DNA of 64,000 bases, taken from NCBI GenBank assembly GCA_964016885.1, contig OZ024742.1:242916001-242980000 (forward strand), read 5' to 3'. Below are positions 1,022 to 7,544 of the stretch, one piece after another. Numbering within the stretch: the stretch's first letter is position 1; every line of letters starts with the position of its first letter. Under the pieces are notes generated by a model, which saw only the letters and a list, made by a program, of their open reading frames with translations, did not search any database and had not been told where the DNA came from. Source of the DNA: Eledone cirrhosa (Eukaryota). Position numbers and translations under genes: made by a program.

Positions 1022-1332
1022 TTATATGTAAGTATTTATATGCTTAAAAACAACGAACATTGACTGAATAAAAGACTAAATACATGTGTAAAGTCTAATA
1101 TTATTACAATTTTTTAACACTGACTTGGAAGTGTTAAAGTCTGCTATTGGCTTGTCAAAACTGTTCACATTTGAACAGCCAATATTCGCAAACTTTTAAA
1201 GTTACTACCAATAAAATTGTTTTAAAAATATACATATTACATACCTTTCTGTCACTTTCTCCATCTCCCTCTCTCTCTAGATGATTATATGCGTGTCTGT
1301 ATGTGTGTCTAAACAACTGATCTATCTATCTA

Positions 1333-2319
1333 TGGGCGCCTGGCACACTGAGTGTGCCCAGGCGCTCACCGCCCTCTGGCAGGCGGATCCGGTTATCAGT
1401 GGAGACTCCACCGCAACATTCTATAGAGGGCTGGTACGCAGCAGGTGCGACGACGCCCTCGGAGAAGCCCTAGACATGGAGGAGGACGAACTGGCCAGCC
1501 TGTTCGGTAGGACATTCAGCCCGGGACCTATGGACAACTTCCAGAAGTCCCTGGCCTGGCAGTGCTACCGAGGGGCTTTACCCGTTCGAGAAAGGCTCTA
1601 CAGACACGGGCGCCCGGGTAGGGACCCCGCCAAAAAGATCTGTCCCAGATGCGTGTGCGACGAGGAAACCGTTGCACACGCATTAGTACACTGCTCGGGC
1701 GTAGCCGATCTGTGGGGCTATGTCGAACAACTGCTGTCAAGGGTGGGACCGATCCGGTTGACCACCGAGTCTATTGTAATGATCAAGCCGCCTCCCCCCT
1801 TCAAAGATGAAGCAGAGGCGGTGTTTCTGTGCGTAATAGCCATGGCGAAAGAGGTTGTATGGTGGACGCGTCTGAAAGGACTGAGGTCGGGCACCTTTCT
1901 CTCTGGCCAACAACTGGTCCGTTTCTTCCGATATCATTTCGGAAGAAGGATCAGGATGGAGAGAGAGGTGCTGCACCCCAGCCGTTTCTATGAAAGATGG
2001 GTGAAAGTGGCGAGAATGGCCCGTGTGAATGGGCCTTCACTCTACATCAGACTATAGGTGAGGAAGATGAAAGACCAAGGGAGCACCCCTTCTCTGTGCT
2101 CCTGAGGAGAAGGGTTGCACACTTTTTTCGGGGGTGTGTGCGACCCCCCAAGGCGCCTCCTCTCTATTGAGGATTTTGTCAAAAATTTTATTTTTTGTTA
2201 TATCTTATTTTATTTTTATATTTTGTTATTGCCTCCTCCTTATTGAGGACGCCTTTTTGTGTAAACTCCCCCCTTTGTACTTGTCCCACTTTTGATGCCC
2301 TAGTGGCAAATAAAAGAAA
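1333..2319 (+). mobile_element. Tx1/L1-clade LINE, 5'-truncated copy 1 (C-terminal zinc-finger region + 3' UTR)
   Basis: Begins after TCTATCTATCTA; encodes WQCYRGALPV...CPRC...ETVAHALVHC (zf-RVT type); ends GGCAAATAAAAGAAA then (TCTA)n; near-identical to copies 2 and 3. Confidence 0.93.
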
Positions 2320-2412
2320 TCTATCTATCTATCTATCTATCTATCTATCTATCTATCTATCTATCTATCTATCTATCTATCTATCTATCTATCTATCTAT
2401 CTATCTATCTAT
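2320..2412. repeat. (TCTA)n spacer between Tx1 copies 1 and 2
   Basis: Perfect run; equivalent runs at 3745-3781 and 6838-6936. Confidence 0.99.
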
Positions 2413-6700: not shown

Positions 6701-6836
6701 ATTTTATTTTTTGTTATATCCTATTTTATTTTTATATTTTGTTATTGCCTCCTCCTTATTGAGGACGCCTTTTTGTGTAAACTCCCCCCTTTGTACTTGT
6801 CCCACTTTTGATGCCCTAGTGGCAAATAAAAGAAAC
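3782..6836 (+). mobile_element. Tx1/L1-clade LINE, 5'-truncated copy 3 (~3.05 kb)
   Basis: Uninterrupted ORF2 from the end of the APE domain to the stop; 3' UTR with AATAAA; (TCTA)n on both sides. Confidence 0.95.
3790..6573 (+). CDS. LINE ORF2 (end of APE endonuclease, reverse transcriptase, C-terminal zinc finger); N-terminally truncated
   Basis: SDH (last APE motif), GPGYWKLN (Tx1-type linker), KSPGLDG, FRPITLLN, DQSKAFDRV, RQGCPLS, YADD, CPRC-x8-H-x4-C. Confidence 0.93.
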   Translation: MLMVGYSDHKLVTCMVNLDRTHRQGPGYWKLNLSLPASRAYRNRISTLVKERLTGAIVNSRWWVSLKREIRVVSIEFSKVLAADRNRKERELIDRVEEAIRSGDVARVLASRTALSQFFDAKHEGCVVRSKIRALGNAGAKAVSWARVTEANSGTKSTIRSLRDLDGRAILEPKQMCEAFQRHFARLFGRGGEPVGNVDFGPYLDGLPRLSDREAKSCEEPISAAEIEDVLGQCGKRKSPGLDGLPYELYLAMPDLFPDLLEAVYCNWQQNGRIPCTVTKGVVTLVRKDENKGDEISNFRPITLLNTELQILAKVLAKRLALVVDNLVGDAQTCAIPSRSIHDNLHLMRYIIERVGNEPGFGGALINLDQSKAFDRVDHGYLDAVLAAAGFGPVFRGWITAMHSSRICSRVKVNGYLSEPFKIARSIRQGCPLSSLLYVLTLEPLLRKLELLQGIPLEPGLRKAVSAYADDVTVMVSTASEIEAVGTLLEEYEKFTGAKLNRDKSIGLQLGTWRGRPMPSDGVVGRWTEGPVKLLGVWFGPDLQVEKNWAEVTNRVFALTQKWASCKLSLKGRAEVANTYIASVIYYRLTVVPCPRETLTKMERALFQFLWKGRAPMVRRSICCQHPSKGGLGMPWLMMRKHALRLRHLYVFLTGQPVWASFVRRTFPRLVSLTELQSWVKQRPRKLGAWHTECAQALTALWQADPVISGDSTATFHRGLVRSRCDDALGEALDMEEDELASLFGRTFSPGPMDNFQKSLAWQCYRGALPVRERLYRHGRPGRDPAKKICPRCVCDEETVAHALVHCSGVANLWGYVEQLLSRVGPIRLTTESIVMIKPPPPFKDEAEAVFLCVIAMAKEVVWWTRLKGLRSGTFLSGQQLVRFFRYHFGRRIRMEREGLHPSRFYERWVKVARMARVNGPSLYISL

Positions 6837-7544
6837 TTATCTATCTATCTATCTATCTATCTATCTATCTATCTATCTATCTATCTATCTATCTATCTAT
6901 CTATCTATCTATCTATCTATCTATCTATCTATCTATTTGTCAGTCTATCTATCCAAGTGTCTATTATATCTGTCTATCAAGATAAAAAGGTAATTAAATA
7001 AACAGTTAGATTGAAAGACAGCGCGCTATTCATTGCTCTACAATATGATACACTTCCTTCTGTTGGACTTGACCTTCACTTATACAATGTCATCAAGTGC
7101 AGTAGCGTAGCTATCACATCGACAACCTAGTCTCATAGAGTCGATGTGACCTAACTCTTATGTTTGGCTCCCACGAGTTAAGCACCTCTCTTGTAAGCTT
7201 TCCCTCATTACTGAAATATTCCACGATATGAATTACTACTTTAATCACACAAACTATTAAAATTTGCCCTTTTTTTTTCTTTCTGTTTATTATTTTCTTT
7301 TCTCTTTATGTATTATTTTTCTGCCATTCTTTCCCTATTAGGAATTTATATTTTATTTCTTTATTTTTGATGGGTAAACTCGGATAAAACGTTAAATAGC
7401 TTTTTATATTGTTTTATTTGTAAAAAGTGTTTTTGTGCAGAGATACATCTGTGGCAGTGAATAGGCTCATATCTTTATTCGATTTCACATTGGCTTTCTA
7501 TACCGGTAAAAAACAAAATGTTCAAACAGAACAAGTATAACAAT

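What the first reader, a model, noticed from the sequence alone, without database searches (positions are those of the whole stretch)
1321..6936. Three independent, young Tx1 insertions stacked in one (TCTA)n array
Seen: same orientation, same 3' end, three different 5' truncation points (about 1.0, 1.3 and 3.05 kb), (TCTA)n before, between and after, no poly(A) tail, and open reading frames. Inference: different truncation points argue for repeated target-primed insertion into a TCTA target rather than segmental duplication, so the family is probably recently active and sequence-specific.
Basis: partly seen in the sequence, partly recalled or inferred. Interest (0 to 1): 0.75.

Follow-up and report, generated by a model that had tools for sequence, protein, structure and literature searches.

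The report
TATC-seeking jumping genes stacked in tandem
Three cut-short copies of a young jumping gene (a Tx1-type LINE), each from a different genome-wide subfamily, sit head-to-tail in one TATC repeat, likely because the element's own enzyme picks that rare repeat as its landing site; repeat-seeking LINEs are known, but I did not find this target described.

Summary
Confirmed. Three same-strand, 5'-truncated Tx1-type LINE copies (987, 1329, 3054 bp) lie in (TCTA)3/23/9/24 with open ORF2 remnants and no poly(A). They are independent insertions: each belongs to a different genome-wide subfamily (B1, B2, A) and is closer to copies on another chromosome than to its neighbours. The family has 1946 exact 3' ends; 85% are followed by NN-TATCT and 12% by NN-TATAT, although (TA)n array starts outnumber (TATC)n starts about 150:1. 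Of the first 100 copies, 65 of 97 also have TATC at the 5' junction, 18 are full-length and 13 of those keep an intact APE-RT ORF2. Stacking is ordinary here: 45 of 100 copies are stacked, and 36 of 60 unselected TATC arrays already adjoin a relative, so target saturation explains it. The two bases after the 3' end track the subfamily, not the target, so the RNA likely runs into the repeat and pairs with the nicked strand. An ATT-targeting sister family (1613 ends; a remnant at 57681-58125) gives a natural specificity pair. Host likely an octopod. The scan reported this family before on other pieces of this genome and another genome. New target for a known kind (Kibi/Koshi).

The parts
1320..1333 (+). 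(TCTA)3 + T: left end of the target array, likely the target-site duplication of copy 1 (last T shared with the element)
   Evidence: TSD length range
1333..2319 (+). Copy 1, 987 bp, 5'-truncated, subfamily B1; ORF2 C-terminus (zf-RVT) open to stop at 2057, then 3' UTR
   Evidence: 1 difference in 987 bp to two copies on contig C1
2320..2412 (+). (TCTA)23 spacer array; one extra T at 2413 versus related copies
2414..3744 (+). Copy 2, 1329 bp + element-borne CA, 5'-truncated, subfamily B2; ORF2 open to stop at 3480
   Evidence: nearest copies 5 differences in 1329 bp, on C1
3745..3781 (+). (TATC)9 spacer array (last T shared with copy 3)
3782..6837 (+). Copy 3, 3054 bp + element-borne CT, 5'-truncated inside the endonuclease end, subfamily A; ORF2 residues ~217-1145 open to stop at 6573 (RT + zf-RVT)
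6825..6830 (+). AATAAA polyadenylation-type hexamer in the 3' end (also 2309-2314, 3732-3737)
   Evidence: function inferred
6838..6953 (+). (TATC)24 right array with degenerate tail
57681..58125 (+). Separate 3' remnant of the ATT-targeting sister family, flanked by TCATTATTATT on both sides
   Evidence: 95% to natural copy L266

Best explanation
The stack is three separate insertions of a young Tx1-type LINE family, each from a different genome-wide subfamily, into one TATC microsatellite, likely made by target-primed reverse transcription after the element's own endonuclease nicks the GATA strand. Shown: full-length copies (5.7-5.8 kb) carry ORF1 with a CCHC knuckle and a 1145-aa APE-RT-zinc-finger ORF2; insertions read element-NN-TAT[C/A]T in 97% of 1946 cases, in one orientation, with 12-21 bp target-site duplications where the target is not a pure repeat. 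Inferred: the transcript runs past AAAGAAA into the downstream repeat (AATAAA lies 11 nt from the end), its NN-UAUC end pairs with the nicked strand and primes reverse transcription there, which explains the missing poly(A) and the subfamily-specific NN. Each insertion leaves TATC on both sides, so the site stays usable; because TATC arrays are rare and about 15,000 relatives compete for them, stacks form by saturation.
For: 1946 exact 3' ends; 1652 + NN-TATCT, 239 + NN-TATAT; 27,717 D(TATC)4 starts vs 4,092,281 B(TA)8 starts, so about 870-1020-fold preference per array (rough; one TATC phase counted). First 100 copies (all on C1): 5' flank TATC 65, TA 11, short 6, none 15, unscorable 3. Window copies type as B1, B2, A; neighbours rank 38 and 70 of 76 (copy 1), 14 and 64 of 71 (copy 2), 39 and 40 of 40 (copy 3) by distance. 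TSDs adjacent to the element in 12 of 14 informative cases; NN differs from the target's bases in 8 of those 12; NN follows subfamily (A CT 16/21, B1 TA 26/28, B2 CA 17/26). 18 of 100 full-length, 13 with intact ORF2, 6 with both ORFs; APE residues present; dN/dS 0.18. 45 of 100 stacked; 36 of 60 unselected TATC arrays adjoin a relative; 13,382 sister 3' ends.
Against: No nicking, priming or retrotransposition assay; nick position and RNA 3' end are inferred. 15 of 97 copies have no repeat at the 5' junction and 239 of 1946 sit in TA context, so specificity is a strong preference. In 4 of 12 informative TSDs NN equals the target bases. TSDs inside pure repeats, including those of window copies 2 and 3, cannot be delimited, so insertion order is unknown. 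No empty allele of this locus was seen. The 100-copy and 60-array samples come from the first part of one chromosome and the array sample favours the phase that follows element ends.
Confidence: 0.88

Rival explanations
1. The TATC runs are element-made 3' tails (slippage during priming, as recalled for CR1/L2 tails), and later copies merely land in those tails.
For: No poly(A); 85% of ends are followed by TATCT; NN is element-borne, so some 3' bases do come from the RNA; 28 of 60 arrays start right at an element end.
Against: A tail cannot appear 5' of the element, yet 65 of 97 copies have TATC there and 45 of 96 have 25 bp or more of TATC/TA repeat, longer than a TSD. Copies in TA arrays or unique targets have TA or unique sequence right after NN-TAT, matching their 5' flank.
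Confidence: 0.05
2. The stack is a local tandem duplication or an assembly artefact of one insertion.
For: Copies 1 and 2 are 99.4% identical and microsatellite junctions are hard to assemble.
Against: Three different subfamily haplotypes, each matched better by copies on contig C1; different 5' ends and different NN; similar stacks at many loci; read-derived contigs in two runs join the left flank to copy 1 (22 letters in, below the tool's 31-letter bridging bar).
Confidence: 0.02
3. Insertion is loosely targeted and copies survive in TATC arrays by selection or low recombination (passive accumulation), or target choice is made mainly by RNA-DNA pairing at pre-existing nicks rather than by the endonuclease.
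For: PMC3812793 (passages) describes passive accumulation for Drosophila Waldo-A/B; element-borne NN shows RNA involvement at the junction; TATC and ATT families differ little in the predicted hairpin loop.
Against: Fixed phase and orientation (positions 3-5 TAT in 98-99 of 100), copies under 1% diverged already show the bias, and a 66%-identical sister picks ATT instead. These argue against passive retention but do not separate endonuclease from RNA pairing.
Confidence: 0.05

Closest known systems
Kibi ((TC)n) and Koshi ((TTC)n), Tx1 clade, teleosts; crocodilian Tx1-1_Crp group ((TTCC)n/(TTTC)n)
   Same: APE-type Tx1-clade non-LTR elements inserted in microsatellites (PMC4494074 passages and section 15; PMC3812793 passages).
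   Different: Target is TATC/GATA (with a TA side preference), host is likely an octopod; the RT lineage is sister to, not within, the vertebrate group holding Tx1L and pufferfish elements. Kibi/Koshi sequences were not identified by name in any call.
Tx1L of Xenopus laevis (P14381)
   Same: Two ORFs, APE-RT ORF2, 317 bits to our ORF2 versus 167 for human L1; starred 95/96 clade with it; target preference.
   Different: 36% identity in RT; Tx1L targets a DNA transposon (Tx1D; PMC4494074), not a microsatellite.
R1Bm / SART1Bm priming by RNA-target pairing
   Same: PMC7265360 (passages) says 3' RNA bases may anneal to the target to start reverse transcription and that R1Bm needs downstream target sequence; the element-borne NN here fits that mode.
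   Different: R1-clade insect elements aimed at rDNA or telomeres (clade and targets partly recalled); here the pairing is inferred from junctions only.
L1-Tx1 families of Octopus vulgaris (PMC13282606)
   Same: 13 recently active L1-Tx1 families, 421 insertions, listed in an octopus genome (passage).
   Different: The passages seen give no target preference; identity with this family not tested.

Membership tests
Tx1 clade (L1 group) non-LTR retrotransposon | ORF2 with N-terminal APE endonuclease, RT and C-terminal zinc finger | tested here: met
   Full-length copy L043: Exo_endo_phos E 7e-7, RVT_1 E 5e-26, zf-RVT E 3e-5; catalytic N, E, Y, D/N, D, SDH align with human L1
Tx1 clade (L1 group) non-LTR retrotransposon | ORF1 with CCHC zinc knuckle upstream of ORF2 | tested here: met
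   ORF1 594-617 aa, zf-CCHC E 0.0035, below Pfam's cut-off; motif visible
Tx1 clade (L1 group) non-LTR retrotransposon | RT phylogeny groups with Tx1L rather than L1 | tested here: met
   95/96 clade with Tx1L, pufferfish, turtle rows against plant L1 outgroup; 317 vs 167 bits for Tx1L vs human L1. Caveat: no mammalian L1 row in the tree
Tx1 clade (L1 group) non-LTR retrotransposon | 5' truncation, fixed 3' end, target-site duplications | tested here: met
   82 of 100 not full-length; TSD 12-21 bp incl. microhomology in 12 informative sites
Target-specific Tx1 family (Kojima criterion) | One sequence type in more than 20% of flanks (PMC4494074 methods passage) | tested here: met
   TATC in 65 of 97 5' flanks and 70 of 100 3' flanks; 1652 of 1946 genome-wide
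Kibi / Koshi | Insertion in (TC)n or (TTC)n | tested here: not met
   Position 3-7 after the end is TAT[C/A]T in 97%
Kibi / Koshi | RT nested with Kibi/Koshi | tested here: inconclusive
   Query lies outside the 100/99 vertebrate group containing a Tetraodon pol (BAC82605.1), but no call names that protein as Kibi or Koshi
Target-specific Tx1 family (Kojima criterion) | Endonuclease cleaves the target specifically | not testable with these tools
   Needs biochemistry

The most novel reading that the evidence does not exclude
An octopod Tx1 lineage has radiated onto simple repeats, with TATC and ATT sister families whose RNA 3' ends carry subfamily-specific bases that pair with the target; it has occupied most perfect TATC arrays of a 3-Gb genome and, by duplicating 3-5 repeat units per insertion, breeds its own landing sites. 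The target switch may rest on few endonuclease residues (R-S-G in the predicted hairpin loop of all TATC lineages aligned, R-M-G in both ATT copies that cover it), giving an intact natural pair for learning how APE retrotransposons are retargeted.
Probability: 0.3. Interest if true: 0.62.

Novelty: new variant of a known kind. Interest (0 to 1): 0.42.

Why it matters
Microsatellite targeting by APE-type LINEs is known but its mechanism is called not well understood (PMC3812793, passage). Here a young family with intact copies, a new four-base target, subfamily-tagged 3' ends and a 66%-identical ATT-targeting sister lets endonuclease recognition be separated from RNA-target pairing by simple swaps. 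It also means most TATC microsatellites in this genome are element junctions, which matters for marker design and assembly. The stack in this window is itself ordinary for the lineage.

Tried and rejected
Tandem duplication or misassembly: rejected by subfamily typing. Element-made TATC tails: rejected as the main source. Extra self-attraction beyond saturation: not needed; upstream neighbours in 27 of 100 copies versus 28 of 60 unselected arrays, downstream 32 of 100 versus 18 of 60. First guess at an ATT sister end found 3 hits only; the right end came from the window remnant. DNA search with the 3' UTR scored only 9 candidates. No RNA holder listed. No empty allele or bridging contig at the left junction: contigs in X1 and X2 reach 22 letters into copy 1, and that sample may be the assembly's source. 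ESM Atlas gave no answer. First tree lacked a named Tx1. Literature: 10 searches found no TATC/GATA-targeting Tx1; Kojima and Fujiwara 2004, Christensen 2000 and Anzai 2005 were not held; Fig. 3 and supplements of PMC4494074, which list Tx1 targets, could not be seen, nor Repbase, so the target may be on record there. Search of earlier findings by sequence gave nothing.

Full report
Observation. The window holds three same-strand copies ending in ...GCAAATAAAAGAAA at 2319, 3742 and 6835, starting at 1333, 2414 and 3782, separated and flanked by (TCTA)3, (TCTA)23, (TATC)9 and (TATC)24. ORF2 remnants are open to a common stop; copy 3 carries RT and zf-RVT. There is no poly(A), but an AATAAA lies 11 bp from each end. 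The leftmost array is only 13 bp.

The family. The window lies on contig C3 of a 3.0-Gb genome. The last 28 bases occur exactly 1946 times. Natural full-length copies are 5.7-5.8 kb, with a ~600-aa ORF1 (CCHC knuckle, below Pfam's cut-off) followed in the same frame by a 1145-aa ORF2 with APE, RT and zf-RVT. Of the first 100 listed copies, all on contig C1, 18 are full-length, 13 of these have an intact ORF2 and 6 both ORFs; a full-length 5' motif occurs 428 times, sister families included. Mean pairwise distance inside subfamilies is 0.56-1.1% and dN/dS between subfamilies A and B is 0.18: young and selected for function. The nearest named homologue is from Argonauta hians, 67% over the RT region, so the host is likely an octopod.

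Clade. ORF2 scores 317 bits against Xenopus Tx1L and 167 against human L1. In a 28-row RT tree the query, with Argonauta and unnamed rows, is sister (95/96) to a group holding Tx1L, turtle and fish elements, with plant L1 outside; no mammalian L1 row was available, and Kibi, Koshi, Keno and Dewa could not be identified by name.

Independence. 77 of the 100 copies were long enough to type and 76 were typed. Copy 1 is subfamily B1 (1 difference in 987 bp to two copies on C1; its window neighbours rank 38 and 70 of 76), copy 2 is B2 (5 in 1329; neighbours rank 14 and 64 of 71), copy 3 is A (11 in 3053; neighbours rank 39 and 40 of 40). A local duplication or collapse cannot produce that. Copy 1 is closest to its relatives and may be the latest arrival; this is weak.

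Target. Genome-wide, 1652 of 1946 ends are followed by NN-TATCT and 239 by NN-TATAT. Starts of perfect 16-bp arrays number 27,717 for TATC (one phase) and 4,092,281 for TA, giving a rough 1000-fold preference per array; 5' flanks alone (65 TATC, 11 TA, 6 short, 15 none, 3 unscorable of 100) give about 870-fold. Some 5' boundaries in that table are imperfect where copies are rearranged. In 14 sites where the repeat is broken, 12 show an adjacent duplication of 12-21 bp including microhomology (two rows dropped for a gap of 16 and 23 bp; two of the 12 are a duplicated pair); human L1 peaks at 14-16 bp (PMC2912911, passages). The duplication starts at TAT[C/A]T, which places the likely first nick on the GATA strand.

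The RNA end. The two bases between AAAGAAA and TAT follow the subfamily: A CT 16 and CA 5; B1 TA 26, TC 1, CT 1; B2 CA 17, CT 4, TA 2, CC 2, TC 1 (chi-square p 1e-16 on 71 copies, inflated by shared descent). They differ from the target's own bases in 8 of 12 informative sites and equal them in 4. In the window, CA after copy 2 and CT after copy 3 have no counterpart in their 5' arrays. So the transcript extends at least two bases beyond AAAGAAA. I infer that it reads into the repeat, is cut and polyadenylated there, and primes by pairing with the nicked strand, as suggested for SART1Bm and R1Bm (PMC7265360, passages). One of the 100 copies has an A-rich tail in a TAA array, which fits occasional priming on poly(A).

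Why stacks. 46 of 100 copies were flagged with a relative within a few hundred bases; one rests on a weak low-complexity hit, leaving 45. Sister families add 13,382 exact ends followed by NN-TAT[C/A]T, 27 of 30 sampled having ORF2 homology. Of 60 unselected TATC arrays (first 60 of 88 clusters from the first 100 of 27,717 hits), 36 adjoin a relative in the target orientation, and 2 more adjoin the 5' end of a further sister. Neighbour rates of the copies do not exceed those of unselected arrays, so saturation of a rare, reusable target suffices. The sample is biased to the phase that follows element ends.

Sister pair. Earlier scan notes mentioned an ATT-targeting sister. I found a remnant of it in this window at 57681-58125; its end occurs 1613 times, 1236 followed by NN-ATTATT, 25 of 30 sampled have ORF2 homology, and copy L266 has an open 1126-aa ORF2, 66% identical overall and 58% in the endonuclease. 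In the loop that aligns with the L1 beta-hairpin (role recalled), TATC lineages read R-S-G and the two ATT copies R-M-G; a lead only.

Reads. No RNA holder was listed. Contigs from two runs of one sample join the left flank to copy 1 but only 22 letters deep; no empty allele appeared; runs labelled as other organisms hold element pieces with 0-2 differences.

Comparison and verdict. Microsatellite-targeting APE elements are known: Kibi (TC), Koshi (TTC), crocodilian Tx1 (TTCC/TTTC), Waldo, Mino, Dong (PMC4494074 passages and section 15; PMC3812793 passages). Ten paper searches showed no TATC/GATA-targeting Tx1, but the target-labelled tree and supplements of PMC4494074 and Repbase were not visible. 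An octopus annotation lists active L1-Tx1 families without targets in the passages seen (PMC13282606). Verdict: real, well supported, a new target and host for a known kind; the stack itself is routine for the lineage.

Noticed in passing
window 57681-58125 (+): 3' remnant of an ATT-targeting sister Tx1 family with TCATTATTATT on both sides; 1613 exact ends genome-wide, 1236 followed by NN-ATTATT.
   Followed up: yes
L043 2000-7770 versus L137 copy (G000:C1:156.39 Mb): Subfamilies A and B are mosaics: 64-80% identical over the first 2.1 kb (5' UTR, ORF1; ORF1 proteins 56%), 87-95% over the endonuclease, 98-100% over RT, 93% around the ORF2 stop; suggests recombination that swaps 5' halves.
   Followed up: partly
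L043 4020-4090: ORF1 and ORF2 are in the same frame, separated by one stop and eight codons before the ORF2 ATG.
   Followed up: no
L044-L045 (G000:C4:344.808-344.825 Mb): A larger stack of at least six copies, including two full-length ones, in one TATC array.
   Followed up: partly
L049, L191, L192, L211, L214, L017, L158: A further young sister family starting GATAGAG... right after TATC arrays, copies 98.5-99.9% alike, ORF1 54% identical to the main family.
   Followed up: partly
L118 (G000:C1:138.806 Mb): One copy ends in CA plus an A-rich tail inside a TAA array instead of TATC.
   Followed up: no
runs X4, X5, X6, X7 on window 1333-2319: Runs labelled as other organisms hold element pieces with 0-2 differences over 70-180 bases: close relatives share the family, or it moved between species.
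   Followed up: partly
window 10120-11959 and 22943-24033: Minisatellites of 23 bp x 80 and 43 bp x 25; very dense (TA)n, (CA)n runs throughout, and ACC/CAC-rich repeats after 61000.
   Followed up: no
window 7600-9200 and 38344-38752: Clustered copies of a ~200-bp dispersed repeat resembling octopus SINE-like repeats (resemblance recalled).
   Followed up: no
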